This document shows, in pieces, positions 8,975 to 64,000 of a stretch of DNA of 64,000 bases. The notes beneath the pieces were generated by a model that was not told where the DNA came from, ran no database searches, and saw only the letters and a list, made by a program, of their open reading frames with translations. A program made the position numbers and the translations under genes. Origin of the DNA: an uncultured Acidobacteriota bacterium (GTDB lineage: Bacteria; Acidobacteriota; Polarisedimenticolia; J045). Each line of letters begins with the position of its first letter. The stretch's first letter is position 1. The stretch covers positions 199,743 through 263,742 of the forward strand of contig CAVPDB010000009.1 in the NCBI GenBank assembly GCA_963702545.1. The letters run 5' to 3'.

Positions 8975-9675
8975 ATGATCAAGCTGCGCAAGGCCGAGGA
9001 CCGCGGCCACGCCGACCACGGCTGGCTCGACACCTGGCACACCTTCTCGTTTGCCGACTACTACGACCCGGAACACATGGGCTTCCGCGCGCTGCGTGTC
9101 ATCAACGACGACGTCGTCGCGCCGGGCCGCGGCTTCGGGACCCACCCGCACCGCGACATGGAGATCGTGACCTACGTGCTGGAGGGGGCGCTGGCCCACA
9201 AGGACAGCATGGGCAACGCCTCGACCATCGTGCCGGGCGAGGTCCAGCGGATGAGCGCCGGGACCGGCGTGCTGCACAGCGAGTTCAACCACTCGAAGAC
9301 CGACCGGGTCCACCTGCTGCAGATCTGGATCCTGCCGGACGCGCACCGGGCTCGCGCCGTCCTACGAGCAGACCTTCTTCCCCGACGACGGAGAAGCGGG
9401 GCCGGCTGCGGCTGGTCGCCTCGCCCGACGGCGCGGACGGCTCGGTCACGATCCACCAGGACGCGCGGCTCTACGCCACGCTCCTGGAGCCGGGCCAGGA
9501 GGTGGCGCACGACCTGGCGCCGGGCCGGCACGCCTGGGTCCACGTCGCGCGCGGCAAAGCCAGCCTCAACGGGCAGCCGCTCGAAGCCGGCGACGGGGCC
9601 GCGATCAGCGCCGAGGAGCGGCTCGTGCTGCGCGGCGACGGCCGGGCCGAGGTCCTGCTCTTCGACCTGGCCTGA
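8975..9675 (+). pseudogene. Pirin family protein, reading frame broken twice (+1 near 9347 and +1 near 9390)
   Basis: RBS GGGAGGT, ATG at 8975. [32 protein letters not shown]...[12 protein letters not shown] is a cupin/pirin signature. [11 protein letters not shown] and then [25 protein letters not shown] continue in the two other frames. Confidence 0.85.
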
Positions 9676-9784
9676 CGGGGCCCCGCGCGCCCCGCCGCGC
9701 CCCGGGGCCGCCTCCCGGCGGCCCGGGGCGCGCCCGTCCCGGGTGCTAGATTCCTCCCTCGCCCCGCACCCGGAGCCCCGCCCG

Positions 9785-11058
9785 ATGCCGAAGAGCAAGG
9801 TCGCGATTCTCAAGACGACGCCGCGCACCGTCCTGTCCGACTACCACGAGCTGCTGAACCTGGCCGACTACCAGCAGGTCGTCGCGCGGGACGCCGACAC
9901 GGCGCTGAAGGTCAACATTTCCTGGCACTTCTTCTTTCCGGCCAGCTCGACCACGCCCTGGCAGCTCGAGGGCGTGATCCGGGCGATGAAGGCCGACGGC
10001 TACGACCCGAACCTGATCCACGCCTGCCACAACCGGACGGTCGTGATCGACGCCCGCCTGGGCGAGCGCGAGAACAAGCAGGTGAACGTGGTCGAGGCCC
10101 ACGGCCTGCGCAACGTCCACCTCTACGACGACGGGAACGAGTGGATCCCGGTCGGCGAGGCGGTGGGCGACCTGACGAAGAAGTTCCTCTGCCTGAACCA
10201 GGTCTATCCCGACGGGTTCATGATCCCGAAGCGCTTTCTCGGCGAGAACATCATCCACCTGCCGACCGTCAAGACCCACGTCTTCACCCACACCACCGGC
10301 GCGATGAAGAACGCCTTCGGCGGGCTGCTCAACGAGCGGCGCCACTGGACCCACCCGGTCATCCACGAGACGCTGGTCGACCTGCTGATGATCCAGAAGA
10401 AGATCCACCGCGGCGTCTTCGCGGTGATGGACGGGACCTTCGCCGGCGACGGGCCGGGGCCGCGCTGCATGCTGCCGCACGCCAAGAACGTGATCCTGGC
10501 CAGCGCCGACCAGGTCGCGATCGACGCCGTGGCCGCGAAGCTGATGGGCTTCGACCCGCTGTCGATCAAGTTCATCCGGCTGGCCCACGACGCGGGCCTG
10601 GGCTGCGGCGACCCGCGCGAGATCGAGATCGTCGGCGATGCGAGCCGCGGCCGCCGAGAACTGGCACTTCGACGGGCCCTACAAGAAGATGACCTTCGCC
10701 TCGCGGATGCAGCACCAGGATCTACTGGGGCCCGCTCAAGGGGCCGATCGAGTGGTCGCTCAAGACGGTGCTCGCCCCCTGGGCCTACGTCGCGAGCGTG
10801 GTCTACCACGACAGCCTCTGGTACCCGCTCAAGGCGAAGAGCGCGATGCGTGCGGCGCTGGCCTCCGACTGGGGCCGGCTCTTCCAGAACTGGGAGACGC
10901 TGACGCCCGACGCGCAGGGCTTCCCGCAGGTCGGAGACGCGGCGGCCGAACTGAAGACCACGGGTGCGGCCGCCTTCGCGCGCTCGCTGGGGATCCTCGG
11001 GACCTGCGTGCGCGAGGCGCCTGAGTTCGCTGCGCGGCGCCGGCGGGCGGCGCGCTGA
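9785..11058 (+). pseudogene. DUF362 domain protein, frame broken twice (near 10643 and 10718)
   Basis: Starts [11 protein letters not shown]... The central [22 protein letters not shown] motif is typical of DUF362. The C-terminus continues as [21 protein letters not shown] and then [31 protein letters not shown] in shifted frames. Confidence 0.8.
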
Positions 11059-11061
11059 CGG

Positions 11062-12980
11062 ATGGACCGGGGCCGCCGCGAGAGGTTCGGGCTGGGGAGC
11101 TTTACGCTGCTGTTCGGGGCGCTGGCGGCGGTCTCGCCGCTCCTCACCGACGCCAACCCGTGGACCCTGATCGGCCTGCTGCTCGCCGTCACCGGCGCGA
11201 TGCAGGCCTTCCACAGCTTCCGCCGCGTCGACCTGGCGGAACGCCGGTCGGCCTACTGGTCCGGCCTGACCTCGATCTCGGCCGGGCTGCTGGTGCTGGC
11301 GGCCCCGCTGCTGGTCGCGCAGGGGCTGGTGCTGCTGCTGGCCGGGATGTTCGTGGTCGAGGCGGCGCGCAAGGTCGTCGCCGTGGCCCGCGGGACCGAC
11401 GACCGGGCGGAGCGGCTGCGCGGCGTTGCCGGCGCGGCGGCGAACGCTCTGCTCGCGATCGTGATTCTCGCGCTGGGGCGTCGCTCGCCCGAGTGGGCGA
11501 TCGCGATCACGGCGGGCCTTCGCATCGTCATGGCCGGCTGGAGCATGGTCACCGCCCCGGTCCACGCGCTCCGCGAGGCGGGCGAGGCCGTGCTGGCCGA
11601 CCTGGACCTGCCCGACGACCCGCGCGCTCGGGCGGCGGCCGAGGTGGTGGTCGAGGCCGAAGCCCGCCGGCAACCGATCGACCGCGGGTGGATCGTCGCC
11701 TTCATCCTCACCCTGTTCGCGATCCACGTCGGGCGGATGCAGGTCGACTGGACGCTCGTCGGACTGATCTCGCCGCTGTTCGCGGTGCTCGGCGACGTGC
11801 TGATGGCGCTGCTCATCGCCTATGGCCTGGTGATTCCGGCCCGCTCGCTGCTGCGTCGCCTGGTGCGTCCCTTGGCGCAGCGGACGACGAGCCGGATGCT
11901 CGCCACTGCCGCCGGCAGCGTTGCCGCGCCCGGCCTGCTCGGCTGGCTGCGCCGGGCCTGGCTGCGCCAGCGGCTGCACGATGAGGTCCAGTCACGCTTC
12001 GCCCGCTACTCGGTTCCGGCCGCGCTCGTTTACGGGCTCCAGACCGGCCTGCCGATCGTCGCGATCCTGGTCGCGACCGTTCCGGTCTGGGGGATGAGCT
12101 GGTACTTCGACTCGGAGAACTGGGCGGCCGGGATCTACAACTCCTGGGCCGAGCACCGCACCGACACCTGGCGCGCGGCGATGGTCCGCGCGGTCGAGTC
12201 GACGGTACCGCCGCCGGCCGGCTTGCCGTCGCGGTTCGCGGTCGCGCCCGACGGCGCGACCGGGAGCGCCGACTTCTCCTTCCTCGTGATCGGCGACACC
12301 GGGGAAGGGGACCCCAGCCAGCGCGTGCTGCAGGACCGCTACCAGTCGCTCGCGGCGCGCGAGGACGTGAAGTTCGTCGTGATCTCCTCCGACGTGATCT
12401 ATCCGACCGGCGCGATGGTCGACTACGAGACCAACTTCTGGCTCCCCTTCAAGGGGGTGACCAAGCCGGTCTACGCGATCCCGGGCAATCACGACTGGTA
12501 CGACGCGCTGGAGGGGTTCAACGCGACCTTCCTGGCCGAGCCCGCGGCGCGCGCGGCGATCGAGGCCCGCGTCGTCGCCGATGGCCGGCTCTCCGGGACC
12601 ACGCCACGGCGAATCGACGCGCTGCTTCGGCAGGCGGCGTGGCTGCGCTCGCAGTACCGCGTTCCGACCGGCCTTCAGCAGGCCCCGTTCTTCGAGGTGC
12701 AGGCCGAGCGCTTCGCCCTGATCGCGGCCGATACCGGCGTCGTGAAGAAGCTCGACGCCGCGCAGCTGGCCTGGTTCAAGGACGCGCTGGCGCGGGCCCG
12801 CGGGAAGTTCCGGATGGTGATCCTGGGCCACCCGATCTACGCCGGCGGCGACGACGGGACCGACGGGTACGGGCCGTTCGCCGCGCTGCACCGGCTGCTG
12901 CGGCAGGAGGGGGTCGAGGTCGTGATGGCCGGTGACACCCACGATCTCGAGTACTACCGCGAGGAATACGCTGGCCCGGT
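11062..12980 (+). CDS. Membrane-anchored metallophosphoesterase (calcineurin-like), 3'-truncated at a sequence breakpoint
   Basis: About 330 aa of multi-helix membrane region, then GDTGEGD, PGNHDWY, ILGHPIY and AGDTHDLEYY phosphoesterase motifs. Family similarity ends near EEYAGPV, where the sequence becomes homologous to nt ~20,770 of this window. Confidence 0.8.
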
Positions 12981-13898
12981 GAAGTCCTGGATAACGTCAT
13001 TCGCAACAACGGCGGGAGCGGGATCTTCATCGACTCGAATTTTGGTAACCTGGTGCATGGGAATCAGATCTACAGCAACGCCGATGACGGCGTGACCATC
13101 GTAGGCGGCGACGCGTCCTACCACATTCAAATCACGCAGAACGATATCCACGACAACGGGGACCAGTCGATCGACCTGAACGACGACGGAGCGTCGGAGA
13201 ACGACCTGGGCGACCCGGATGCAGACGCCAACGGCACCCAGAATTACCCTGTGTTGGTGCGGGCGCGGCCGATTTCCGGCGGTGCTGTTGTGGAGGGGTA
13301 TCTCAACAGCATTCCAGGCGAGGAATATGGTATCGAGTTGTTTGGTGGCGCCAAGTGTGGCCAGGGCCCGCAGGCGTTCTTGCCAAGCATCCCATACACG
13401 ATCAGCCTGCCGACGGGCACAGGCTTTTTCAGCGTGACGGTCATGCAGCCGGTGGCGCTGGGGACCGCCATCCAGGCGACGGCGACGAGGGGGCCGTTTA
13501 TTGGAAGTAGTGAGACCTCGGAGTATTCTGACTGCGTCATTGCGGGACCGGGCAACGACTCATGGCCGAAGGCACTGCGGACAAACGTGCCGGCGAGCGC
13601 AGCAGCCGTCAGTGCAGCGGAGGCGGCGGAGGTGGCCCAGGCGTGCTGGCGTGACCGAGGTGGACGCCACGACCGGCGTGGTGACCATGACGCAGTACAT
13701 CGATTCGCTGGGGCAGTCGCGCTGGTTCAAATTCAAGATCCGGCCCAATAGCCAGCTCATCGTGACGTTGACGGGGCTGCCGAGGAAGGGGCTGCCAGCG
13801 AACTACGACCTGACATTGTACAAGGACATTGCGCCGAGTATCAAATTCGGCGGATCCGAGAACGCGAGTGATTTGACGCTCATATGCGGCAGTTTCGA

Positions 13899-14050
13899 CG
13901 TCGGCGTTTGCTCCGTCGTCATTTGCGCCGTCGTTGTTTGCGCCGTCGTCGTTTGCGCCGTGCGTCGTTTGCGCCGTCGTCGTTTGCGCCGTCGTCGTTT
14001 GCGCCGTCGTCGTTTGCGCCGTCGTCGTTTGCGCCGTCGTCGTTTGCGCC
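13899..14050. repeat. 15-bp tandem repeat GCGCCGTCGTCGTTT (~10 units; APSSF / RRLRR / VCAVV in the three frames)
   Basis: Direct reading of the sequence. One unit carries an extra g near 13962. Confidence 0.9.
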
Positions 14051-17000
14051 GGCGGCGTACAGTCCTGACTCCTACAGCTCGTCGTCGTACAGCCCATGGG
14101 CATTCGACCAGGACGCATTCAGTCGGCGGCTTCAGTCGCCAGTGCCTACAACCCATCCACCTTCGACCCCAAGTCGTTCACGGGCGCACAGACTTGAGCC
14201 TGGTGGGGGTTTCGGCGTTCGAGGGAACGTCGAGAGAGGGGTCTGATCATGAATACGTGGCTGAACGACGGGGACTTCTACGTACGGGTGCGAGGGCGTG
14301 ACGGTGCGTTCAGCCTGGATGCGCCGTTCGCCCTGACGGTGCAACTGGAGCCGGGCCCCTGTGCGAATGCGTTCGACACGCCGCTGCCGGCGACGTCGCT
14401 GGCGCCGCAGGCTGGCGGATTCAAGAGCATCATCCTGGTCGATCGGGCCCGCATGAACGCGGCGTACGGTAAGCCCAGGTCAACGCCATGCTGGCGAAGT
14501 TGAAGAACTCCGGCTGCGCCCCGAAGTGAACGGCGGGATCCTCGACATAAGCCAGGATGCGCGGGTGGCGGCTGCGAACCAGCGGGCGGACCAATACTAT
14601 GTGTGTCCGTACGGGAAGAACGTCGTGGCGGAGTCGATCAAGGCGATCGTGGATGCGTATCGCAGGGTGAACCCGCTGGAGTACGTGGTCATCGTGGGCG
14701 GGGACAACAGCATCCCCTTCTTTCGCTACCCGGACAACGCACTGTTGGGACCCGAGTCGGACTACTTCCCGCCGGTGCTGGACTTCAGCTCATCGCAGGC
14801 GGGGCTGCGGCTGAACTACGTCCTCAGCCAGGATGGCTACGGCGCATCTGAGTTTCTATCTCTCAATGGCACGGAATTTCCGGTACCCGACCTGGCGGTG
14901 GGGCGCCTGGTGGAGACGCCTGGGGACATTCTGAAGCAGCTTGGATGCCTACTTCCTGACGACCAACGGGGTGGCGCCGGCGCCGCAGGCCGCACTGGTA
15001 ACCGGCTACGACTTCATGGAGGACGTCGCCCAGGCGGTGAAAGGTGAGCTCGGCACGGCACTAGGGGCGGGCAAGACAGTCGATACGCTGATCACGCCGA
15101 ATACGGTGTCACCGCTGGACCCGCAGTCGTGGACTGCGTTTCAGTGGACGAGAAGCTGCACAGTCGGCGCTACGATCTGGTGTTCCTGGCGGGGCATTTC
15201 GCGGCTGACAATGCGCTGGCGGCGGACTTCCGACGGCACTGCTGCCGACCGACATACTGTCGTCGACGGTGGACATGCGGAATGCCCTCTTCTATAGCAT
15301 GGGTTGCCATTCCGGGTACAACGTCGTGAACGAGCATCGTATCCCCAACGTGACCTCGGAACTGGACTGGGCGTCGGCGTTTGCGGAGAAGGGTGTGACC
15401 TGGATCGGCGGGACCGGCTTCCAGTACGGCGACACGGAGTTCATCGAGTACAGTGAGCGGCTCTACCTGGACTTCACCGCAACCTGCGCTACGAGGATCC
15501 GGGCGATCCGGCGGGGGCGCCCGTGGCCATCGGCAAGGCGCTGGTGCGGGCCAAGCAGCGCTATCTGGCACAGACGCCGGCGATGAAGGGGATCCACGAG
15601 AAGTCGCTGCTGATCCCGACAATCTATGGGCTGCCGATGTTCAGCATCGACTTCCAGGGTGCGGCGTGGACGCCGGCGGCGCGCCGGTCGCTCTTCACCA
15701 GCACGCGCCGCCGGTCGTGACTGGTCTGCCCGGCTCGGCGCTGCAGATGCGCCAGACGGACATCACGGTGACGCCGGTGACGACCGAGACGCTGAAGACG
15801 CTGAAGGACGTGGACACGGGGCAGCCGGTGGTGGCGAGTTACCTGCGCGGCCGGGACGGGGCGCTGACCGAATCCGTCGGAGCCGACGCTGCCGGTGGAG
15901 GGGGTGAACCTCAGCGCGCCGGATAACGCCTTGCGCGGCGTTGGGTTCCGCGGCGGTGACTTCTGTGACGTGCCGAACATCATCCCGCTGACGGGTGCGC
16001 CGGCGACGGAGATTCGGGGCGTCTACACGCCGTTCTACAGCAAGACCTGGTTCCCCTTACAGCCGTGGAGCGTCAACTACTACGACGTGCTGGGGCAGGG
16101 GCCGGGGGCGTGGGGGACGCGGCTGTACGTCATGCCGGCGCAGCACCGGTCGACCGGGCCCGGGACGTTGACCAGCATCCGGCGGCAGTTCAGCGAGATG
16201 GTGTTCCGGCTCTTCTACAGCGCAAACACCTCGTCCATCGGGGAAGGTAGCGCCAAGAGTACCGCCGGCCCTGGCCGACACGCCGACCATCGTGACGGTG
16301 AGCACGCCGGAGGCGCCGGACAAGGCTGCGCTTCCTGTTAGCGTGTGGTGGGGAATCCGGCGGCGGGGGTGCACGCGGTGTGGGTCACATGGACACGAAA
16401 CGGCGTTGCGTGCAGCCAATGGCAGTCGATCGATCTCGTCGAGAGCAGCCAGGATACGACGAAGTGGGGAGGCGTGCTGACCCTGCCGGCGGGCGTCGCA
16501 CCGAAGGATGTGCGTTTCATCGCACAGGCGGTGAATGGCGTGGGAGTCGTTGGGCTGTCCAACAACATGGGCCGGTACTACGGCGACGCGGGCAGCCTGG
16601 CGTCGGAGCTCCTGCCGACGACGCTGACCCTGGAGCCGCTGGCCACCACCATGGGTGCGTTCTCCACCAAGGCGACGTTCGCCGCCGTGCTGCGGGATGG
16701 GAGCAACAATCCCGTGGCAGGCCGTACCGTCGTCATCGGCTTGGGTGCACAGGAGCAGTTTGCGGTGACGGATGGTGCGGGTCGGGCGGCGGTGACCATG
16801 CCGCTCCTGCTGCAGTCGGGCGCCTATCCGGTCCACGCGTCGTTTGACGGCGACGCTCAGTACACGCCATCGTCGGCGAGCAGCCCCGACCAGTTCACGG
16901 TGACACGCCAGGGGACGGCGATCCAGGTGGATCCGGTTGTGGCTGTCAGTGCTGCCGCGGGGTCATGGGTCGCGGCGGCCAATGACCCCGCGGCAGCGCA

Positions 17001-17221
17001 GTTCATGGCGACGCTCTTCGACGTGGATGGCGTGCGCCTGTTAGCCCAGAGTGTCTTCTTCGAATTCTCGGGGGGTGGGCAGGTCATCACCAAGCCGGTC
17101 CAGACCAATCTGATGGGCGAGGCCATTGTGACGGTTCCGGCGCTGCCGCCGGGCGCCTACATGCTGACCGTCATGTTCACCGGCACCGGGTCTTACTTGC
17201 CGGCCATCGTGACATTCGGCG

Positions 17222-52332: not shown

Positions 52333-52365
52333 GCTTCTTGGCAGAATTCAATTTGTGCACTAAAA

Positions 52366-52387: not shown

Positions 52388-52404
52388 TTTCTCAGGAGTC
52401 AACT

Positions 52405-53161: not shown

Positions 53162-53205
53162 TAGACACAAAGACACCAAGGGTCGAAGTTTCACGAAGAG
53201 AAAGG
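53162..53205 (+). repeat. Purine-rich ~45-nt leader motif, copy 1 (TAGACACAAAGACACCAAGGGTCGAAGTTTCACGAAGAGAAAGG)
   Basis: Ends 6 nt before the flavodoxin-like ATG. About 85% identical by eye to the two copies at 56309-56443 (opposite strand). Confidence 0.75.
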
Positions 53206-53211
53206 CAACCA

Positions 53212-53865
53212 ATGGACAAGACGACGTACATCAACCGGCGGCGTTTCCTGATGATGGCAGGCGGCACGTTGGGCGCCGGCGTGCTTCTGTGCAGCGGCGT
53301 GACCTACGTGGGCAGCCAGGCGCCGGCCGTCGATTTTATTCGTTCGAGTTGTGGCAAGGGGGACAAGATGAAGAAAGTTCTGGTGGCGTATGCCAGCAAA
53401 TATGGGTCGACCGGCGAAGTTGCCCAGGCGATCGCGGATCAACTGTGTCTGCGTGGCGCGGCCGCCGACGTGCGGCGGGTCGAAGAGGTGACGGACGCCA
53501 CCGGCTACGACGCAGTGGTCGTCGGGAGCGCCGTGCGCATGGCACGCTGGCTGCCGCCGGCAGTGGAGTTCGTCGAGAGGAATGCTGCCGCGCTGCAGAA
53601 GGCGCCTACGGCATTCTTCACCGTGCACATGCTGGCGACGGACGACAGCGAGGCCAGCCGCCAGCAGCGCGCCGCCTACGTGGAGCCGGTGCACGCCTTC
53701 CTCACGCCGCAGCACGAGGCCTTTTTCGTCGGCGAGATCGATACCGGCAAACTTGCGCTGGGCGACCGGCTGATGGTGAAGCTGGTGCGCTCGCAGACGG
53801 GGGATTGCCGCGACTGGCCCAGCATTCGGTCTTGGGCGGACCAGTTGTTTCCCGATGTCGTCTGA
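53212..53865 (+). CDS. Flavodoxin-domain protein with twin-arginine signal
   Basis: MDKTTYINRRRFLMMAGGTLGAG is Tat-like. KVLVAYASKYGSTGEVAQAIA is the flavodoxin FMN-loop pattern. Confidence 0.75.
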   Translation: MDKTTYINRRRFLMMAGGTLGAGVLLCSGVTYVGSQAPAVDFIRSSCGKGDKMKKVLVAYASKYGSTGEVAQAIADQLCLRGAAADVRRVEEVTDATGYDAVVVGSAVRMARWLPPAVEFVERNAAALQKAPTAFFTVHMLATDDSEASRQQRAAYVEPVHAFLTPQHEAFFVGEIDTGKLALGDRLMVKLVRSQTGDCRDWPSIRSWADQLFPDVV

Positions 53866-54045
53866 GCAGTCGGGTGGATAGGGGTTTTTTTGCCACCTGG
53901 AGCGTCCCCGTCACGGTCTGTTCGTTGGCGAGTTGTCTCGGCGGACGTGCCGGGGACGGGGACTGGACCCTGCGGCGTCCCCGGCACATCAGATTGCCGG
54001 CGAGGAAAACCAGGCCGGCGTGCTCGGGGAACGTTCGACCGCATG

Positions 54046-54477
54046 CTACACGGATTCGCTTGCCGCCCAGTCCGCGACTTTGCTCCGAATCGCGTCACGA
54101 ATCACGCGGACCTGGGCAAGCTTCTCTTCGTCTGTGCCCTGGACCTGCGACGGATCGGGGAATGACCAGTGCAGGCGCTGGCTGACGCCGGGAAAGACAG
54201 GACAGCGCTCGGCAGCCGTCTCATCGCAGACGGTGATCACGTAGTCGTAGAGCTTGCCGGCGCGATAGAGGTCGAAGACGCTCTTCGTCTCTTTCTGCGA
54301 GATATCGATTCCTTCCTCTGCCATCACCTGCACGGCCAACGGGTTCAGGACGCCCGGCTCCAGGCCCGCGCTGGACGCCTCGAAGTGGTCGCCTGCCAGC
54401 GCGTTGAGCCACGCTTCGGCCATCTGGCTGCGGGCGCTGTTGTGGACACAGACGAACAATGCCTTTGTCTTGCTCAT
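54046..54477 (-). CDS. arsC: Arsenate reductase, LMW-PTPase (thioredoxin-coupled) type
   Basis: [17 protein letters not shown] carries the CX5R(S) P-loop. The downstream Cys pair context [14 protein letters not shown] is typical of this ArsC class. Confidence 0.9.
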
Positions 54478-54543
54478 GTGCTCGGTCTCCTGTGGGTGAA
54501 AGACAGTTCAGCTCTTTGCGCTTGTTGCGGGGCGTTTGGCTGC

Positions 54544-54662
54544 GTCCCCGGTTTGCGGCGAGGGCGTCAGCATTCCGGGAATCGACGACGAGGATCTCGG
54601 CCGACCCCACGATCTTGCGGTCGATTCCCGGAATGCTGACGCCCTCGCCGCAAACCGGGGAC
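54544..54662. repeat. 43-bp perfect inverted repeat with 33-nt spacer between ACR3 and arsC
   Basis: GTCCCCGGTTTGCGGCGAGGGCGTCAGCATTCCGGGAATCGAC (54544-54586) is the exact reverse complement of 54620-54662. Confidence 0.9.
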
Positions 54663-54689
54663 ATACCCGGTCGTAACGACCAGTGATTG

Positions 54690-55842
<1,153 letters not shown>

Positions 55843-55902
55843 CTAAGTTCTCCTTGGTGCACCAAATGGTCTGTCAATCCTGGGTCGTTGGTTCGGGTAT
55901 TC

Positions 55903-55971
55903 GTCCTCCGGGAGGTGGCTTGCGGGAGGCGGGGGACGCCCCCGCCTCCCGCAAGCCACCTCCCGGAGGAC
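55903..55971. repeat. 33-bp perfect inverted repeat, 3-nt loop, between the thioredoxin-like gene and ACR3
   Basis: GTCCTCCGGGAGGTGGCTTGCGGGAGGCGGGGG-acg-CCCCCGCCTCCCGCAAGCCACCTCCCGGAGGAC. Confidence 0.9.
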
Positions 55972-56024
55972 CAGCCCCCGTACTACCCTGGTCTGAAAGG
56001 CTCAGGAACGGCCATGGAAAGACC

Positions 56025-56270
56025 CTACGCCGGCTGCGCGCGGCGGATCATCTCGATGACCTGGCTCTTGGCCGGCACCTTGCCGGTGCTGACCACCTTC
56101 TCGTCGATCACGATGGCCGGCGTGCTCATGACGCCGTAGGCCATGATGGCAGGAATATCCTGCACCTCGACGACCTGGGCGTCGAGCCCCAGCTCCTTGA
56201 TCGCTTCCGCGACGACGGCCTTGGTCTTCTTGCAGTTGTTACACCCCGTCCCCAACACCTTGATTTCCAT
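56025..56270 (-). CDS. Thioredoxin-fold redox-active disulfide protein (81 aa)
   Basis: GGGGAGAG RBS. MEIKVLGTGCNNCKK has a CxxC, and YGVMSTPAIVIDEKVV is the cis-Pro region. This family is commonly found next to COG0701 permeases. Confidence 0.85.
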   Translation of the reverse strand: MEIKVLGTGCNNCKKTKAVVAEAIKELGLDAQVVEVQDIPAIMAYGVMSTPAIVIDEKVVSTGKVPAKSQVIEMIRRAQPA

Positions 56271-56308
56271 TTCTCTCCCCGATCCTTCCTTTTTGTCTTT
56301 CCTTCTTG

Positions 56309-56443
56309 TCTTTCTTCGTGAACCTTCGTCGCTTTGTGTCTTCGTGTCTACTCGGGTCCGTGTCACGACTGCGAACAGAAGGGCGATTCTCTTCCCATCT
56401 TTCTTCGTGAACCTTCGTCCCTTTGTGTCTTCGTGTCTACTCG
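56309..56443 (-). repeat. Purine-rich ~46-nt leader motif, copies 2 and 3 (direct repeat, 89-bp period, 1 mismatch)
   Basis: The minus strand reads CGAGTAGACACGAAGACACAAAG(G/C)GACGAAGGTTCACGAAGAAAGA at 56398-56443 and 56309-56354. It fills the permease/thioredoxin intergenic region. Confidence 0.85.
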
Positions 56444-56446
56444 ATC

Positions 56447-57541
56447 TCAAATCACGAGATTGAACAAGTACCCCGTCAAGATGATCCCCACCGACACCAC
56501 CCCGACGAACACCGCAATAAGGCGCGGCTTCAACACACGCCGCAAAATGATGATCTCCGGCAGGCTCAGCGCCACCACGCTCATCATGAAGGCCAGCACC
56601 GTGCCCAGCGCGGCGCCCTTGGCCATCAACGCCTCCGTCACCGGGATGATGCCGGCTGCGTTCGAGTACATGGGCACGCCGATGGCCACGGCCGCCGGCA
56701 CGCTCCACCAGGCGTCCTTGCCCATGATGCCGGCCAGCGCGTTTTCGGGCACGTAGCCGTGGATCACGGCGCCCACGGCGATGCCGGCCACCACGTAGGG
56801 CCACACCTTGCCCACGATCTCGCGCGTCGTCTGCCAGGCAATGGCGAAGCGCTCCGGCCAGCTCATGCGGTCGCCCGGCTGCGCGCCCGACCTGCCGACC
56901 GAGATCTTCCAGACGAAGTCCTCCACGCCCCGCTCGACGTTCGGTACGCGGCCAATGACGACGCCGGCCAGAATTGCGATGAGCAGGCCGGTCGCCATGT
57001 ACAGGGCGGCGACCTGCCAGCCATACATCCCAAAGAGCATGATCAGCGCGATCTCGTTGATCATGGGCGCGGCGATGAGAAATGAGAAGGTGACGCCGAG
57101 GGGGATGCCCGCCTCGACGAAGCCGATGAAGAGCGGCACGGCCGAGCAGGAGCAGAAGGGCGTCACCATGCCCAGCATGGCGGCCAGGACGTTGCCGACG
57201 CCCTGGCGTTTGCCGCCCAACAGTTGGCGGGTGCGTTCCACGCCGAAGAAGGTGCGCACGGTGGTGACCAGGAAGATCATGCCCGTGAGGAGCAGCAGAA
57301 TCTTGGGCACGTCGTAAATGAAGAAGGCGACGGCGCTCCCCAGCGCCGAACCGGGGGCCAGCCCAAGCAGATCGAAGGTGATCCAGGCGGCCAGACGTTC
57401 CAGGTTGCTCCAGGCGACCCACCAGAGCGCCGCGGCGCCGGCCAGCAATACCCACACGCGCCACGGATGGCTGTGAGGCGCAGCATCCAATGGCTGGGGA
57501 GATGCACTGTCAGACGGAGAGGATAGCAGGCTGTTGCTCAC
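56447..57541 (-). CDS. COG0701/DUF318-type permease (ArsP-like)
   Basis: GTG at 57541, 14 nt after the arsR stop. About 10 TM helices. The TPFCSCSAVPLF Cys motif is typical of this family. Confidence 0.8.
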   Translation of the reverse strand: MSNSLLSSPSDSASPQPLDAAPHSHPWRVWVLLAGAAALWWVAWSNLERLAAWITFDLLGLAPGSALGSAVAFFIYDVPKILLLLTGMIFLVTTVRTFFGVERTRQLLGGKRQGVGNVLAAMLGMVTPFCSCSAVPLFIGFVEAGIPLGVTFSFLIAAPMINEIALIMLFGMYGWQVAALYMATGLLIAILAGVVIGRVPNVERGVEDFVWKISVGRSGAQPGDRMSWPERFAIAWQTTREIVGKVWPYVVAGIAVGAVIHGYVPENALAGIMGKDAWWSVPAAVAIGVPMYSNAAGIIPVTEALMAKGAALGTVLAFMMSVVALSLPEIIILRRVLKPRLIAVFVGVVSVGIILTGYLFNLVI

Positions 57542-57554
57542 GGCTGAATGCCTT

Positions 57555-57932
57555 TCATGATCGCCAAATTTCCAGCGCGATCGGTTGCGGTTCCTCCTGG
57601 CACTTGGGACAGGGGCAGGAAATGACCTTCTTGTGCCTCGCCAGTTCGGGATGTTCACCCACCGCTGGCCCGAGCACGCTGTCGAGCCAGGCGCGGACCG
57701 TCTCGTCGCTGAGCCGGTAGAAGACGTTCTGGCCCTGCTTCTCGTCCGCGATCAGGCCGGCCTCGCGCAGCAGCCGCAACTGCTGGGAGACGTAGGGCTG
57801 CGGCTTGCCGAGCATGGCCTCCAGGTGGCAGACGCACTCGCTGTCGCGGCGGATGGCGTCCAGGATGCGCAGGCGTTCGGGGTGGGCCAGGAGTTTCAGG
57901 CGGCTGCTGAGAAGATCGTAGTCGGGAATCAT
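57555..57932 (-). CDS. arsR: ArsR/SmtB-family metalloregulator
   Basis: LKLLAHPERLRILDAI..ECVCHLEAMLGKPQPYVSQQLRLLREAGLI is a winged HTH with an ECVC metal site, plus a C-terminal CPCPKC. Confidence 0.9.
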   Translation of the reverse strand: MIPDYDLLSSRLKLLAHPERLRILDAIRRDSECVCHLEAMLGKPQPYVSQQLRLLREAGLIADEKQGQNVFYRLSDETVRAWLDSVLGPAVGEHPELARHKKVISCPCPKCQEEPQPIALEIWRS

Positions 57933-58053
57933 TTTTGACCGTAGTCACCATTGAATGCGAAAAGAGATATATTCAGGATATTGCATGGATTGTCTCACAG
58001 TGTAGACGTCGTGTCAATAATGGGTCTTTGCCTGGGTCTATTTACTTTCTGGG

Positions 58054-58183
58054 GCAGCACTGTCAGCGGATTCGGAAGCGGATTGAGCGGATGACGACAG
58101 CGGATTGCCGGGCCGGAATTGGTGCGCTCTGCGTCCCCTGCGCGCAGCCAGACAAGGATGCTGGGGGCGATCCGCTCAATCCG
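58054..58183. repeat. Cluster of AGCGGAT(T/G) motifs (4 direct, 2 inverted) including a 16-bp perfect inverted repeat
   Basis: AGCGGATTGAGCGGAT (58067-58082) is the exact reverse complement of 58160-58175. Extra copies lie near 58054 and 58089. Confidence 0.8.
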
Positions 58184-58212
58184 CTAATGAGATCTTCCAG
58201 CCCTCGGGGGTA

Positions 58213-60586
58213 TCAGTCCATGCGCGCCAGCAATTCTTCGAGTTCGGCCAACGCCTGGTGCAGAGGAGCGGTGACGCTGGCCCCTGACCTTGGCCCGGCC
58301 ATCGTCGCACGGCCAGGGACCGTCGCGACGGGCGCGCCTTCCCTTCCCCGCAGGTCCTCCCACTCCTCCAGGGCCTCCATGGCGCTGCGGTATCCTATGT
58401 CGGCAATCTGCTGATAGGAGCCGAAGTCCAGGATGTTGAATTGCTCCACGGGCGGACGGATGTAGACGTCGGCGAACCCACGCTTGGTCTTGGCCTGGTG
58501 CACGTCATTGAGCGCCAACACCCGCAGCAAGCTTTCGAAGATCAGCGGGGCGCTCCGATCCCGGCGCTGCAGCGGATTCAGCTTGGCCGCGAGGGCCTGC
58601 CAGCCTGAGACGCTGGGGCCGAAGCGGTAGTCGCGCAGCAGGTCCACGTCGGGGAACACGTTCACGGCGATGATCGGCCCGCCATAATTCAGCCGCTGCA
58701 TAACGTCGATGGGCAGGTTGTTGAGCACGCAGCCGTCTACCAGAAGGTCTCCCTCGGCAAGGATAGGGGAAAAGACGCCGGGGATGGCCATGCTGGCGCG
58801 CACCGCCTGCCACAGTGGGCCCCGGCGGTGCACCATGGCGACGGCATGGGTCAGGTTGCTGGAGACGCAGAAGCAGGGCATCCACAGATCCTCGATCTGC
58901 GTGTCGCCGTAGAGCCGCTGCAGCACTTGCGTGACCTTCCCCGAGGCAAAGAACGAGACCACAGGCATCGTAAGGTCGAAGAGCTTCAAAGGCGAGGCCA
59001 ACTGCCGCGCCAACTTCAGGGTGTCCCGGTCGTTCAGGCCCATGGCGAATGTGGCGCTGAGGATGGCGCCCATGCTGGTGCCGCCGACCAGGTCCACGGC
59101 GACCCCGCACTCCCTGAGGGCTTTGAAGACCCCAATGTGCGCAAAGCCGCGGGCCCCGCCGCCACCCAATACCAGCCCCATGCCGCGGCCGGTGACCCGG
59201 CGCACAAAGCTGTCAAAATCTGCCGGCTGGCCCAACCGGACGTGATGGTGGCCGGCTGCCGGGTATCGGTCCAGCCAGGCCGCCGTGCCTGAGGGTCGGG
59301 AGATGTGATCCGGCTGGAGCAGCACCAGCTCGGTAGTGGTGGAATCGCTGTGGACGGCCAGATGCTGGTCTAGTTCGGTGGGCACCGGAGGAGACCCGCC
59401 CTGGCCCACCAGCAGCACCCGGTCGGCCATGCGCAGGCAGCGCTGCGTCCATGGAGTCCAGGCATCATCTGCCTCGTAGATCACGTAGCAGTAGCTTTGC
59501 TCCTGCCGCTGCAGCCAGGCAGCGAGCATGGGCTCGGAGGGATCCGGTGCGTCCACCTGGGCGATGCCCGGCCTGCCGAGGAGTCCCTCCAGGCGAGCGC
59601 TGCTGAGGTGTAAGGTCGTACCACGGACCGAAAGAACCGACGCCAGCCGCTCCGCGAAGGCCGCAAGCGGCACGCCGCCCCGGGGGACGCCCACCGGCAA
59701 CACGGCAAAGCCCACGGCGTCAGAGGCGTGGAAGGCATTAGGCGTGGCAGCGCGGCGCTGCACGCGGCGCAACGCGATGCGGGCCAGGCGCGTCATCACC
59801 TCTGGATACTGGAGCTTCAGGTTCTCGAAGAGGGACCGCGTGATCACCCCTACCGCGCTGTCACGCAGGGCGTAGACCGTGGCCGAGCGTACGTCGCCGG
59901 TGAGCAGGCTCCTCTCGCCCACGGTGTCCCCGCGGCCGATCTCGTCGATGACCGTCTCCGTTCCCTCGGCATCGCGGGCCACGATGCGCAGCCGGCCCAT
60001 AGATCACGACGAACAGGCGATCGGCGTCCTCGCCCTCGCGGATCAGGACATCCCCGCGCTTCAGTTGCAGGCACTCGATTTCCGCCAGCAGCGCCGCCAA
60101 CTGCGCGGCGTCCCGCTCGCCGAGCAAGTCGCAGATGACTCGGGCCAGCAGCGTCTCATCCGCAACCGGGGCGATGAAATCTGCAAGCCTGGACATGGAC
60201 TCCGGGTGCCTCTCGCACAGCCCCTCGAAGGCGATCCTGCCCAGCCGCAAGACCCTGGCGTCGTCGAGGGCCCGCGCTGTGCTGGTGTGCGGCCCGCGGG
60301 CTACCAGGCCGATCTCGCCGACCCCCTCCCCTGGGCTTAGCACGCGGACCGGCTGGGCGCCGCCCTGGGGGAATTGTTCCGTTAGCGAGATGCGCCCGCG
60401 CAGGATGAGGAATGCGGCGTCACGCGGATCGCCGCCAGCGAAGAGGGTTTCCCCCGCGTGCAGATCGATGGGCTCCAATGCCTGGTCCAGTTCTTCCCGG
60501 GCGATGGGGTCCAGCGCCTCGATCGCCAGGCGCGCCGCGGGGTACGCCGCCGGCGCCGAGAGCCATTCTTCCAGCAGATCTTCCAT
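58213..60586 (-). pseudogene. Patatin-like phospholipase with two N-terminal cyclic-nucleotide-binding domains (NTE family), one +1 break near 59997
   Basis: cNMP domains: GETLFAGGDPRDAAFLILRGRISL and GDVLIREGEDADRLFVVIYG|RLRIV. Patatin: GLVLGGGGARGFAHIG, GGTSMGA (GxSxG), LVDGCVLNNLP (Asp). Confidence 0.85.
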
Positions 60587-60719
60587 CGGATCAAACTCCT
60601 TTTGCGGTACCCGAGCTCCCGAGTCGTAAGCGAAGCGACGCCCGCGCTGTTCCAGCCACAGGCAGGCCTCAGCTCACCTGCTCACGACACAGCGCCGCTC
60701 GTCCGCCTGGCAAGCGCAC

Positions 60720-62007
60720 TCAGCTATACAACTGCTTGGCGAGCGCGCTCACCCGCTTGGCGAGCGCGATGATGGTCAGGATGGGCGGGTTGCCCAGGGA
60801 GCGCGGCAGCAGGCTGGCGTCGGCGACGTAGAGGTTGTCAGGCAGCCGGTCGTGATGCAGCGACCCGGCCTCCCGCTCGGTCAGCGGCAGGCTGCCACCC
60901 GGATGGCCGGCATTGATGGTGCCGAGGAAAAGATCTTCCTCCTTGGCTCCCAGCCGGCAGAGTATCTCGGTCGCCACCCCCTGCGCTGCGACCAGCCGTT
61001 CCTTATCGGTATCCGTGAGCGTCTTCTGAACACCGTGCCTCGTGACACTGCCCTCGTTGGACTCCGCCAGCTTGATCATGATGCCCAGGATATCCCGGGC
61101 CGGGTACTTCCACTCATCGTTGAAAAAGAAGCTCAGGAAATCGAAGTACGGCGAAAGGATGTAACCGGGCATCTGGGCCACGAAGGGCATCTCGACTTCC
61201 CGGCACTGGTGGCTGCCCGGCCAATGCGTGGCGACCGTCAGCACCGGGTCGACAAACAGGTGCGGTTCGCAAGGGATGCCGGACTCATCAAGGATGGCCG
61301 GGGTGGCGAAGCCGCCAGCCGCCAAAATCACCAGGTCGGCCGGGTAGAAGCGATGCAGGAGTCCATGGTGCGCCCACACACCCGTAGCCCGGCCGTCCTC
61401 GATCTCCACCGACTCGACCGCTGCAGCCGGTGATCAGCTCCGCGCCCTTCTCCAGTGCCGCGTCCAGGTACTGCCGGCTGTCCCACTTCACCCCCTCGGG
61501 ACAGCCGAACATGCAGCGACCGCAGCTCTTGCAGCGCGTGAAATCGCCCATCTTGGGCATGGGCATCGGCTCCAGGCCCATCTCCTGAAATATCTGGAAG
61601 AGCTGCCTGGTATGCTTGCGCCAGACCCTTTGGTGCGCCGTGGAGATGGGGATCTCCCGGAAGATCTCCTCGAACTCCGCATCGAGGTCGATGCCGAGCG
61701 CCCGCAGGTCCTGGTCCATGCGCACGGCATTGCCGCAACAGATGGCGGTCGAGCCGCCTGTGCCGATGCCGTTCACCAGCACCATGTCCGGCGTCTTGCG
61801 GATCTGCATCGCCGGGAAAGGAAAATGAATCAGCCGCTCGTCGAACAGCAGGTGCGTGCTCTTCAGCCGCTCCAGGGTCCGCAGGCTGAGGGACAGGGGG
61901 CGGAACTCTCCCCCGGCCTCCAGCACGGTGACGTCGAAGGCCCCCTGCAGTTCTTTGGCCGCAGTGGCGCCCCCGGCGCCGCTGCCGATCACAAGCGCAC
62001 GTTTCAT
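60720..62007 (-). pseudogene. GMC-type FAD-dependent oxidoreductase, one frame break near 61420
   Basis: AGGAG RBS. MKRALVIGSGAGGATAAKEL is a Rossmann motif. Internal CKSCGRCMFGCPEG. C-terminal GTINAGHPGGSLP...LYVADASLLP is the GMC C-terminal motif. Confidence 0.8.
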
Positions 62008-62596
62008 CTTGTTTGCTCCTGCCACGGTTGGGCTGAAGAGGGACTGCCTGCCAGCGTAAAGCGGGCGCGGCAGCAGGGCTGTCCTTCGGTGATACGCTCG
62101 AATGAAAACGAGTTCGCCTCCGCCTGCCAGGCCGGCCAACAATCCGCGATCCATGGCCGACATCACCCGGCAGGCCTCGGGTGAGTAGAAACTGCTGAAA
62201 TAGCAGCGGCTGATGGTGATCTCGCCGCTGCCACTGCCGCTGTCGCTGCCGTGGAAGTCGATGTCCAGGACGTCGTAGAGAAGGCGTCCGAGCGCCATGA
62301 CGTCGTCGACGCTGCTGGACGCGCAGCAACCATCCTGGCGTCCGGCCCAGGCGGTACGCGTTCCGATACAACCGCTCCTGCAACTCGGAGAGATCGCCAC
62401 CCTGGCGAAGCGCCTCCTCGGCCTGGTCCGCCGTGAACCGGGCATACGCCAGCAGGCACTGCTCCCGCGATAGCCCGGACAGCCGGGGCATATCGGCTTG
62501 AAACGCTGCGGCTGTAGCGCGGAAGAGCAGCACCAGCGCCTGCCGCTTGACGATCGCGGGCGTGTGAGTCAGAAGTCGCGCCAGCAATGGGCTCAT
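62004..62596 (-). pseudogene. ATC-hydrolase-like (L-2-amino-thiazoline-4-carboxylate hydrolase family) protein, 2 frame breaks
   Basis: MSPLLARLL... then ISRCYFSSFYSPEACRVMSAMDRGLLAGL then ERITEGQPCCRARFTL, read across frames. ATGA overlap with the oxidoreductase start. Family call is from the motif pattern only. Confidence 0.5.
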
Positions 62597-62598
62597 GG

Positions 62599-64000
62599 TC
62601 AATCCCTGGCCGCTTCGCCGGCAAAAAGGAAGCCTTCGCAGAGGCTGCCCGGCTCAGCTTTGCTGAGCACGGCGGCAGCGGCGGGCGCCCCGTCGTAGAG
62701 CGCTTCGATCAGGCCCTGCAAGCGAACTCCGACCGCCTGCCGCTTGAGCTTCAGGTTCGCGGTCAGGTCGCCGCGCTCGATGGACAGATCGTTGCGCAGG
62801 ACCGCCCAGCGCTTCACCTGCTCCGGGTGTGAAAGCCCGCGGCTGAGATCCGCCATGGCCTGGCTGATCGCGGCTTCGCTCGGGGCGTCGTCCGGGTCGA
62901 TGATCCACAGCAGCGCCACGCAATACGGGCGGCCCTCGCCCACCAGCATGGTCTCGGCGATGCCGGGGATGTCGCGCAGCAGCGCCTCGATCTTGGCCGG
63001 CTGCACGTACTTGCCGTACGAGGTCTTGAACAACTCCTTCTTGCGGCCCTCCAGGACCAGGTAGCCGTCCGCGGTCAGGCGTCCCAGATCGCCCGTGTGC
63101 AGCCAGCCGTCCTGCACGGGCGAAGGCGCGTCCGCCTCGAAGTAGCCGGCGGTGACCTGCGGCCCCCGGACCAGCACCTCGCCGTCCTCGGCGAGGCGCA
63201 CCTCCGTACGGGGCAAGGGCGCGCCAACCGTGCCGATGTGGTTGGCGCCCGCGCGGTTGAGCGTGACCAAGGGCGCCTCGGTGAGGCCGTAGGCGTTGTG
63301 GATCTCAATCCCCAGCTCACGAAAATTCAGCAGCAGCTTCTCGCTGGCAGACGCAGAGCCGACGGCCAACTGGGTGGCGCCGCGCAGTCCCAGCTTGCCC
63401 AGGAGGCTCCACCGCAGCAACGGGCGGATCGCGTTCTTCAGGGGACCTGCGGACAGGCCGAGGTAGAACTTGCCCGGCCCGCTCTCCTCCAGTCCTTCCC
63501 ACGCCCGCTCGAACACGCGCGGCACGGAGAAGAAGAAGGTGGGCTTCACCTGCGGCAGGTAGCGCTGCGCCTGCCTGAAATCCTCCAGGAAGTAGATGTC
63601 CAGCGCCTGGGGGATGTAGTAGCCGGCGTACGCGACCAGGATGCCTTCGACGACATGGTTCAGGGGCAGGAAGGACAGGTAGCGGGCGCGCCGCGTGCGA
63701 GCTCGCCAGGGCAGGAGCGCCGCCATGGTCTCGCCCATCCAGCGCAGGCCGTCGTGCCGGAACATCACGCCCTTGGGCCGGCCGGTGGTGCCCGAGGTGT
63801 AGCGCAGCGTCGCCAGGTCGCCGAAACCTGCGGGCGATTGCGGCTTGGGATCGAGTGGCTGCTGGCGGCCCAGTGCCAGGAACGCCTCCCAGGCCATGAC
63901 GGGCCGCGCGCCGGCCGCAGCCGGTGCCGCAGGCGCGGGATCGCTGCAGAAGGAGATGACCGGGGCGTCCGAGCGCAGCTCTCCGAGGCGTTCCAGCACC
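62599..64000 (-). CDS. AMP-dependent synthetase/ligase (long-chain acyl-CoA ligase-like), 5' end outside window
   Basis: LRYTSGTTGRPKGV AMP motif, NAYGLTEA, GWLHTGDLG and ELFKTSYGKYV. The ORF is open to the window edge. Confidence 0.9.
   Translation of the reverse strand, partial: VLERLGELRSDAPVISFCSDPAPAAPAAAGARPVMAWEAFLALGRQQPLDPKPQSPAGFGDLATLRYTSGTTGRPKGVMFRHDGLRWMGETMAALLPWRARTRRARYLSFLPLNHVVEGILVAYAGYYIPQALDIYFLEDFRQAQRYLPQVKPTFFFSVPRVFERAWEGLEESGPGKFYLGLSAGPLKNAIRPLLRWSLLGKLGLRGATQLAVGSASASEKLLLNFRELGIEIHNAYGLTEAPLVTLNRAGANHIGTVGAPLPRTEVRLAEDGEVLVRGPQVTAGYFEADAPSPVQDGWLHTGDLGRLTADGYLVLEGRKKELFKTSYGKYVQPAKIEALLRDIPGIAETMLVGEGRPYCVALLWIIDPDDAPSEAAISQAMADLSRGLSHPEQVKRWAVLRNDLSIERGDLTANLKLKRQAVGVRLQGLIEALYDGAPAAAAVLSKAEPGSLCEGFLFAGEAARD

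What the first reader, a model, noticed from the sequence alone, without database searches (positions are those of the whole stretch)
8975..62600. Pervasive single-base indels (mostly +1 insertions) break about 20 otherwise well-conserved genes
Conserved family motifs continue in an adjacent frame after one extra or missing base.

Examples:
- pirin: extra c near 9347, extra g near 9390;
- DUF362: extra a at 10643, extra g near 10718;
- copy A: +t 13644, +g 13962, -c 17390, -t 18408;
- copy B: -c 20891, +a 21906;
- desaturase: +g near 32163;
- VOC: near 35961;
- hypE: near 41281;
- activase: three +1 events between 45,750 and 45,870 that together restore the frame;
- ACR3: -g in a G-run near 55733;
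- patatin: +g in a run near 59997.

Other similar-sized genes (lnt, fabF, hypB, the permease, the acyl-CoA ligase) are intact.

The density (about 1 per 0.5-1 kb in part 2) and the insertion bias look like unpolished long-read consensus error rather than biology. If real, this would be an organism-wide pseudogenisation pattern.
Basis: partly seen in the sequence, partly recalled or inferred. Interest (0 to 1): 0.6.

Follow-up and report, generated by a model that had tools for sequence, protein, structure and literature searches.

The report
Assembly indel errors on chimeric contig
The many single-base frameshifts are really in the deposited sequence, but they are consensus errors of a long-read metagenome assembly. 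They are densest in a roughly 55-kb Chloroflexota fragment that was probably wrongly joined to the end of an Acidobacteriota contig, so this is a data-quality problem and not biology.

Summary

The interpretation (long-read consensus error) is supported.
- Short-read contigs 98.3% identical to window 30813-32693 lack all five window indels, and every one is an extra base in the window.
- Fragmented same-genus MAGs (93-96% identical) lack the pirin and DUF362 insertions.
- Two sibling assemblies with contig_N record names carry their own, different frameshifts in the same genes.
- Only two candidate junctions keep the frame, so nonsense mutations are few at most. Fragments stay highly conserved, and insertions outnumber deletions.

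New result: the window has two parts. Bases 1-12979 are Acidobacteriota (73% GC). Bases 12981-64000 are Chloroflexota-like (65% GC), run to the contig end, are absent from 40 relatives, and start mid-gene on both sides of the junction. They carry about ten times the frameshift density of the core. C10, C17 and C12 have similar foreign-GC tails (C16 is less sharp). The join is most likely a chimeric misassembly.

The indels are not in homopolymers.

The parts
1..12979 (.). Core Acidobacteriota segment (73% GC). It is syntenic with same-genus genomes G001-G004.
   Evidence: 83-96% DNA identity to G001-G004; cluster mates are named Acidobacteriota bacterium.
3047..3047 (-). +1 base (C) relative to G001, near the end of a minus-strand gene.
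   Evidence: alignment; the gene model places an insertion at 3040.
9337..9389 (+). Pirin gene with two +1 insertions, at about 9337-9344 and at 9389. The stretch between them has extra substitutions.
   Evidence: G001 and G002 lack both; gene-model insertions at 9344 and 9390; tblastn frames 1>2>3.
10644..10717 (+). DUF362 gene with two +1 insertions. At 10717 the window reads CACCAGGATC, where G004 has CACCAGATC and G002 has CACCGGATC. This looks like two alleles merged into one consensus.
12979..12981 (.). Junction between the two parts. The metallophosphoesterase gene loses about 150 C-terminal codons. Beta-helix gene copy A starts about 200 codons inside the gene.
   Evidence: GC drops from 0.73 to 0.65.
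12981..64000 (.). Chloroflexota-like tail (65% GC). It continues to the end of contig C9 and carries about 53 frame changes.
   Evidence: no match in 40 relatives; best protein hits are Anaerolineae, Caldilinea and other Chloroflexota..
12981..17256 (+). Copy A of a giant beta-helix/Ig-like surface protein. It is 5'-truncated and has at least 8 frame changes.
17250..19855 (+). About ten tandem copies of a 258-nt (86-aa) repeat, with at least 5 frame changes.
20152..25014 (+). Copy B of the giant surface protein, with at least 9 frame changes. It is 88% identical to copy A, with 83 gap positions.
25161..28832 (-). Cyclase-AAA-TPR regulator. It is 1240 aa in relative P0147 and is broken here at about 28118 and about 26318-26390.
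31148..32159 (+). Five window-only extra-base events against short-read contigs: 31148 (+2), 31190 (MgtC N-terminus), 31841, 31856 and 32159 (desaturase).
   Evidence: L048 and L049, 98.2-98.5% identity.
33037..34701 (+). A hypothetical gene (2 frame changes, about 33190 and 33250) and MscS (2 frame changes, about 34128 and 34576-34619).
   Evidence: The genes are intact in L046, L050 and L052.
35617..36415 (-). Two-domain VOC/glyoxalase gene, broken at 35954-35976. All homologues are single proteins of about 266 aa.
37976..40312 (-). hypF with three window-only +1 insertions, at 38473, 38805 and 38933.
   Evidence: Pfam domains run across the breaks.. It is intact (809 aa) in L052.
40309..41353 (-). 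hypE with +C at 41281.
41774..42545 (-). Eight window-only +1 bases within 770 nt, between hypD and hypE.
44676..45063 (-). hypA, broken at about 44765-44788.
45223..49551 (+). CoA-enzyme activase. It is a single protein of about 1420 aa in all homologues and is shattered here by at least 11 frame changes.
49571..52311 (+). MalT-like LuxR regulator with at least 4 frame changes.
55732..55735 (-). ACR3 N-terminus frame change.
59996..60002 (-). Patatin-like/cNMP-binding gene with a +1 base (GGG against GG). The sibling contig_N-named assembly has its extra base 6 nt away. The MEGAHIT-style contig is in frame.
61419..62315 (-). GMC-oxidoreductase-like region with window-only +1 bases at 61419, 62100 and 62315.

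Best explanation
The frameshifts are residual single-base errors, mostly spurious extra bases, in the consensus of what is probably a long-read metagenome assembly.

The genome (G000) is an Acidobacteriota MAG of 24 contigs, 81.5% complete. Across its core it carries about one frame-breaking indel per 10 kb.

Window 12981-64000 is a different thing. It is about 55 kb of a Chloroflexota genome (65% GC) that the assembler attached to the end of contig C9. The most likely route is a chimeric read or a spurious overlap at a point where the true contig could not be extended. I infer, but could not show, that this tail came from a rarer and less deeply covered population. That would explain why its consensus is about ten times worse (about 1 indel per kb), and worst in the repeat-rich surface-protein genes.

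Shown here: the positions of the indels, their absence from short-read and sibling assemblies, the change of taxon and composition, and the mid-gene junction.

Inferred: the sequencing platform, the low depth of the tail, and that the join is artefactual and not a real insertion.
For: 1. Against short-read or fragmented (probably short-read) assemblies, 13 of 15 one- or two-base differences are extra bases in the window. All five differences against L048/L049 (98.3% identity), the four pirin/DUF362 sites, and the patatin site against L053 are of this kind.

2. Frameshifts are private to each assembly.
- Against L047 (92% identity) there are 16 single-base indels. Thirteen are extra in the window and three are extra in L047.
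- hypF is broken at three sites in its 3' half in the window. In L047 it is broken at three other sites in its 5' half.
- Against L051 (97.3% identity), three +1 bases are unique to the window and five indels are unique to L051.
- The JGI contig L052 has hypF, VOC, MscS, desaturase and MgtC all intact.

3. Reciprocal test. G004 proteins detect 26 frameshifts in 247 kb of G000. G000 proteins detect 27 in 247 kb of G004. The events fall at different genes.

4. In the tail there are 53 frame-changing events against 2 same-frame junctions, and insertions outnumber deletions. Pfam domains run straight across the breaks. Stitched fragments cover 97-100% of intact homologues.

5. Evidence for a chimera.
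- GC drops from 0.73 to 0.65 at the junction.
- The tail has no match in 40 relatives, while the core is 85-96% identical to same-genus genomes.
- HypD is 85-93% identical to Chloroflexota proteins, and the core proteins are named Acidobacteriota.
- Both genes are cut mid-gene at 12979/12981.
- The core has its own hypF-like and hypE-like DNA matches elsewhere in the genome.
- C10, C17 and C12 have sharp foreign-GC tails, and C16's first 20 kb is lower in GC. The C10 tail also begins mid-gene, exactly where G004 synteny would continue from C9.
- Frame breaks are 4-5 times denser in the C9 tail than in most other ~65% GC segments of G000.
Against: - Depth, junction-spanning reads and the platform are therefore inferred.
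- The comparison sequences are 90-98.5% identical, not identical. Individual indels could in principle be real strain differences.
- The indels are not homopolymer-associated. About 5 of 21 match a neighbouring base and none lies in a run of three or more. This does not fit classical nanopore error and leaves the error process unidentified.
- At the patatin site, two contig_N-named assemblies both carry a +1 within 6 nt. This points to a systematic component, not purely random error.
- My gene model has a background of about 4-10 apparent frameshifts per 100 kb. Genome-wide model counts are therefore only relative.
Confidence: 0.88

Rival explanations
1. The join is real. The Chloroflexota segment is a recent 55-kb inter-phylum transfer carried by a minority strain of the acidobacterium. 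The frameshifts are still errors, caused by that strain's low coverage.
For: Metagenome contigs often end at strain-variable islands. G000 also has internal low-GC segments flanked by core sequence on both sides. The rest of the truncated phosphoesterase gene is nowhere else in G000, so an insertion cannot be strictly excluded.
Against: - Both genes at the junction are truncated, not split.
- None of the Pfam scans of tail genes returned an integrase, transposase or conjugation family. Not every ORF next to the junction was scanned.
- The tail runs to the contig end.
- C10's tail (52% GC) starts mid-gene at the point where G004 synteny continues from C9. A single insertion would therefore need two unrelated compositions.
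- C10, C17 and C12 show the same pattern, and C16 shows it less sharply.
- The core has its own hypF-like and hypE-like matches elsewhere in the genome.
Confidence: 0.08
2. The frameshifts are real. The segment is a decaying island, or the organism is undergoing genome-wide pseudogenisation.
For: The indels are present in the deposited sequence. One site (about 60000) is frameshifted in two independent assemblies.
Against: - The indels are absent from a 98.3%-identical short-read population.
- They are private to each assembly, even within one gene.
- Only 2 same-frame junctions that could hide a nonsense codon stand against 53 frame changes.
- Insertions predominate, whereas bacterial mutation is deletion-biased (my own knowledge: Mira, Ochman and Moran 2001).
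- The fragments keep strong Pfam scores, up to E=1e-152.
- At the shared site the extra base differs between the two assemblies.
- G004 shows an equal, non-overlapping load.
Confidence: 0.03
3. Programmed ribosomal frameshifting or another recoding mechanism restores the proteins.
For: Some breaks come in nearby pairs or triplets that restore the frame, in the activase and at 61419/62100/62315.
Against: Orthologues in relatives are in frame at the same positions. The sites share no slippery motif (contexts). About 50 sites in 51 kb is far beyond any known recoding system.
Confidence: 0.01

Closest known systems
Frameshift-inducing indel errors in long-read (meta)genome assemblies. The problem is described by proovframe (bioRxiv 10.1101/2021.08.23.457338) and by Sereika et al. 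2022 (PMC9262707).
   Same: Single-base indels split otherwise conserved genes. They disappear in short-read data. They lower marker-gene completeness: G000 is 81.5% complete in only 24 contigs, and relative G006 is 74% complete in a single contig.
   Different: According to the Sereika et al. 2022 abstract, nanopore indels derive from homopolymer regions. Here the errors are mostly non-homopolymer insertions, often next to variable positions. That fits low-depth or mixed-strain consensus, or an insertion-prone chemistry. The platform is not known.
Chimeric (inter-genome) contigs in metagenome assemblies and MAG bins.
   Same: There is an abrupt change of GC and of taxon at a single base. Genes are truncated on both sides. 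The foreign part lies at a contig end. Several contigs of the same bin show the same pattern.
   Different: The tail is long, at about 55 kb. Read-level support for or against the join could not be examined.
Genuine pseudogene-rich genomes, such as those of recent host-restricted bacteria.
   Same: Many conserved genes are interrupted.
   Different: Such genomes show shared lesions among relatives, nonsense mutations, deletions and insertion-sequence (IS) elements. Here the lesions are private and almost all are frame changes, mostly insertions. Coding density stays at about 86-90%.

Membership tests
Long-read consensus indel artefact | The indels are absent from independent high-accuracy sequence of the same or a near-identical population. 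| tested here: met
   L048/L049 (Logan contigs, 98.3% identity): all 5 differences are window-only extra bases. G001/G002: the 4 pirin/DUF362 insertions and the one at 3047 are absent. L053 is in frame at about 60000.
Long-read consensus indel artefact | Lesions are private to each assembly and are not inherited. | tested here: met
   hypF is broken at different sites in the window and in L047. The window and L051 each have their own indels. G000 and G004 have reciprocal, non-overlapping loads.
Long-read consensus indel artefact | Almost all damage is by indels, and the coding sequence is otherwise conserved. | tested here: met
   53 frame changes against 2 same-frame junctions. Pfam domains are continuous across the breaks. 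Stitched fragments cover 97-100% of homologues.
Long-read consensus indel artefact | Homopolymer association (the nanopore type of error). | tested here: not met
   Of 21 well-placed window insertions, about 5 match a neighbouring base and none lies in a run of 3 or more (contexts). The exception is GG to GGG at about 59997.
Long-read consensus indel artefact | Error density rises where read depth is low. | not testable with these tools
Indirect evidence only: density is about 10 times higher in the foreign tail and is patchy along contigs.
Chimeric contig | Abrupt change of composition and of taxon at one point. | tested here: met
   GC 0.73 to 0.65 at 12980. Acidobacteriota on one side and Chloroflexota on the other. 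The tail is absent from 40 relatives.
Chimeric contig | The junction does not respect gene boundaries, and there is no integration machinery. | tested here: met
   The phosphoesterase gene lacks about 150 codons. Beta-helix gene copy A starts at Pfam profile position 61 of 158. No integrase or transposase family appeared in the Pfam scans, although not every ORF near the junction was scanned.
Chimeric contig | Few or no reads span the junction, and depth steps there. | not testable with these tools
Genuine pseudogenisation | Lesions are shared by close relatives, with a mix of nonsense mutations, deletions and IS insertions. | tested here: not met
Programmed frameshifting | The frameshift site and a slippery motif are conserved in orthologues. 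| tested here: not met
   Orthologues are in frame at the tested sites.

The most novel reading that the evidence does not exclude
The Chloroflexota segment is physically part of an acidobacterial chromosome in a minority strain. That would be a very recent 55-kb inter-phylum acquisition carrying hyp, ars, a CoA-enzyme activase and giant surface-protein genes. In this reading only the frameshifts are artefacts of that strain's low coverage.
Probability: 0.07. Interest if true: 0.4.

Novelty: not a real feature. Interest (0 to 1): 0.08.

Why it matters
There is no new biology here, but the result has practical weight. This assembly is the one held for its species in the GTDB-based genome set.
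- About one gene in ten is frame-broken in the core.
- At least three contigs (C9, C10, C17), and probably C12 and possibly C16, end in DNA of foreign composition.
- Gene-content, pseudogene, HGT or "novel fusion" claims drawn from these regions would be wrong. Examples are the hyp, ars and activase genes at C9:212,722-267,410, or the phosphoesterase/beta-helix "fusion" at window 12980.
- Same-genus G004 shows a similar frameshift load.
- Other findings from this scan that fall in window 12981-64000 should be read as Chloroflexota sequence of low consensus quality.

Tried and rejected
- **GC3 frame plot.** A simple plot was too noisy to place frameshifts. I replaced it with a codon-usage Viterbi gene model that allows one-base skips.
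- **Gene-model calibration.** On 400 kb of G004 the model gives about 10 apparent events per 100 kb. I therefore used genome-wide model counts only as relative values and relied on homology tests.
- **Continuation of the truncated gene.** I looked for the rest of the phosphoesterase gene elsewhere in G000 and did not find it.
- **Exact-protein look-up** of the window's own 657-aa fragment returned nothing, because records of the window's own genome are withheld.
- **Literature search** for the run and assembly accessions found no paper, so the sequencing platform remains unknown.
- **Homopolymer and common-motif explanations** for the insertions were considered and rejected from the contexts.
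- **Programmed frameshifting** was considered and rejected because orthologues are in frame.
Full report
**Where the window lies.** The window is C9:199743-263742 of a 3.95-Mb, 24-contig genome that is 81.5% complete. GC is 0.73-0.75 up to about 12 kb and 0.63-0.67 from there on. On the whole contig, the low-GC part runs from C9:212,722 to the contig end at 267,410.

**Two parts with different origins.**
- Window 1000-6000 matches same-genus genomes at 85-94% DNA identity, and 6000-12979 at 83-96%.
- Window 26000-31200 has no real match in any of 40 relatives.
- Core proteins cluster with proteins named Acidobacteriota bacterium.
- The tail's HypD is 85-93% identical to proteins of Anaerolineae, Caldilinea, Kouleothrix and Roseiflexaceae. 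The VOC protein and the activase also have Chloroflexota best hits.
- The core has its own hypF-like and hypE-like DNA matches on C24 and C13.

**The junction.**
- Identity to G002 stops at window 12979, inside a metallophosphoesterase gene.
- That gene's reading frame is 791 codons long in G002. In the window it loses about 150 C-terminal codons and reads 38 junk codons instead.
- From 12981 the sequence is colinear with position 20761 of the same window, which lies about 200 codons inside copy B of a giant beta-helix/Ig-like surface-protein gene.
- Its first Pfam match starts at profile position 61 of 158. Both genes are therefore cut mid-gene.
- An earlier first-reader note had seen the same breakpoint, and I confirmed it independently.

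**Checking the listed frameshifts.**
- *Pirin and DUF362.* Alignment with G001 and G002 shows two +1 bases in pirin (about 9337-9344 and 9389). It shows two in DUF362 (about 10644 and 10717).
- *Gene model.* I wrote a codon-usage Viterbi model that allows one-base skips. It recovered three of these four unaided and treated the fourth as a gene boundary.
- *Pfam domains run across breaks in the tail.* HypF_C and HypF_C_2 span three breaks, HypA spans one, and the second cNMP-binding domain of the patatin-like gene spans one. BcrAD_BadFG and DUF2229 of the activase span several, and AAA_16 and TPR_MalT of a MalT-like regulator span several.
- *tblastn with intact proteins from relatives shows frame switches*:
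  - VOC at 35954-35976
  - MscS at two sites
  - a hypothetical gene at two sites
  - the 1240-aa cyclase-AAA-TPR protein at two sites
  - hypE at about 41282
  - at least 8-9 sites in each surface-protein copy
- *Activase.* It is a single protein of about 1420 aa in thousands of homologues. Here it shows at least 11 frame changes.
- *Total.* There are about 53 frame-changing events in 51 kb (22 within gene models and 31 at junctions). Only two junctions keep the frame.

**Artefact or biology?**

*Short-read sequence.* Two Logan contigs (L048, L049) are 98.2-98.5% identical to window 30813-32693. They differ by five indel events. All five are extra bases in the window: 31148 (+2), 31190, 31841, 31856 and 32159. 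In those contigs MgtC is 213 aa (199 aa in the window) and the desaturase frame is open. Pooling these with the G001/G002 and L053 comparisons, 13 of 15 one- or two-base differences are extra bases in the window.

*Sibling assemblies.* ENA assemblies ERZ25039459 and ERZ25039502 have records named contig_N, which I take to be long-read assemblies.
- Against L047 (92% identity) there are 16 single-base indels. Thirteen are extra in the window and three are extra in L047.
- The window's hypF breaks (38473, 38805, 38933) and its hypE break (41281) coincide exactly with window-only insertions.
- L047's hypF is instead broken at three other positions in its 5' half.
- Against L051 (97.3% identity) the window has private +1 bases at 61419, 62100 and 62315. 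L051 has five private indels of its own.
- At the patatin site both assemblies carry one extra base, but at different positions 6 nt apart. The contig L053, whose k141 name suggests a MEGAHIT short-read assembly, is in frame.
- JGI contig L052 has hypF (809 aa), VOC, MscS, desaturase and MgtC all intact.

*Reciprocity in the core.*
- Proteins from 400 kb of G004 detect 26 frameshifts in 247 kb of aligned G000 sequence, or 10.5 per 100 kb.
- G000 proteins detect 27 in G004.
- The events fall at different genes.
- Two congeneric, contiguous MAGs each breaking about one gene in ten at unrelated places is the pattern expected from sequencing error, not from descent.

*Kind of lesion.* Almost all lesions are frame changes, insertions predominate, and the fragments remain strongly conserved. 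Natural decay would give nonsense codons and a deletion bias (the latter point is from my own knowledge).

**Why the tail is worse.** Its density is about 104 per 100 kb, roughly ten times the core rate. It is also 4-5 times the density in most other ~65% GC segments of G000 measured with the same model. I infer a rarer, thinly covered source population, but I could not test depth.

**Other contig ends.**
- C10 drops from about 0.8 to 0.5 GC at about 155.3 kb, C17 from 0.77 to 0.49 at about 179 kb, and C12 from about 0.72 to 0.58 at about 261 kb. The first 20 kb of C16 is 0.65 against 0.72 beyond, a less sharp change.
- G004 synteny runs from C9:210,484 directly to C10:155,272.
- The C10 orthologue there lacks its first 186 residues, so that tail also begins mid-gene.
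- This recurring pattern makes chimeric joins much more likely than a single real insertion.

**Homopolymers.** Several sit beside variable positions. At 10717 the window reads CACCAGGATC, where relatives read CACCAGATC or CACCGGATC. This looks like two alleles merged by a consensus step. The exact error process and the platform remain unknown.

**Limits.**
- The comparison sequences are near-identical, not identical.
- The gene model has a non-zero background.
- A real but low-coverage island is not excluded. I put it at about 8%.

**Verdict.** This is not a biological feature, and the tail should be treated as misjoined Chloroflexota sequence of low consensus quality.

Noticed in passing
G000 contigs C10:~155,300-172,670; C17:~179,000-196,561; C12:~261,000-265,670; C16:1-20,000: Other contigs of this MAG end in DNA of sharply different GC (0.52, 0.45 and 0.58; C16's first 20 kb is 0.65, a weaker contrast). 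The C10 tail starts mid-gene. The C17 tail has no ORF longer than 217 aa. These are likely further chimeric tails.
   Followed up: partly
G000 C9:~210,484 and C10:~155,272: Synteny with G004 shows that the true chromosome continues from the core end of C9 into the core end of C10 (reverse strand). About 14 kb of the G004 equivalent is missing between them.
   Followed up: partly
G004:C4:1,200,001-1,600,000 (loci L021-L040): Same-genus genome G004 (5 contigs) carries about 11 frameshifts per 100 kb relative to intact G000 proteins. It probably has the same assembly-quality problem.
   Followed up: partly
window 59990-60010: Two independent contig_N-named assemblies both have a spurious extra base within 6 nt of each other, next to a GATC site. 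This may be a systematic error, for example one linked to methylation.
   Followed up: no
window 17250-19855: About ten tandem copies of a 258-nt (86-aa) unit, roughly 88% identical to each other, follow surface-protein copy A. Relative contig L046 has a single gene copy and shows no BLAST match to this repeat.
   Followed up: partly
window 54070-57932: The Chloroflexota tail carries an arsenic-resistance cluster: ArsR, ArsP-type permease, a thioredoxin-like protein, ACR3 and an LMW-phosphatase-type ArsC. A Phd/PIN toxin-antitoxin pair lies at 52405-52936, and only the C-terminal half of its PIN domain matches.
   Followed up: no
window 45223-49551: Within the activase, short out-of-frame excursions of 60-150 nt are flanked by paired frame changes that restore the main frame. 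This suggests local consensus misalignment and not independent point errors.
   Followed up: partly
earlier notes on other pieces of this genome: Earlier follow-up reports name the organism inconsistently: Acidobacteria/Acidobacteriota in some and Anaeromyxobacteraceae in one. Given the chimeric tails found here, the taxon of each window of this MAG should be checked separately.
   Followed up: no
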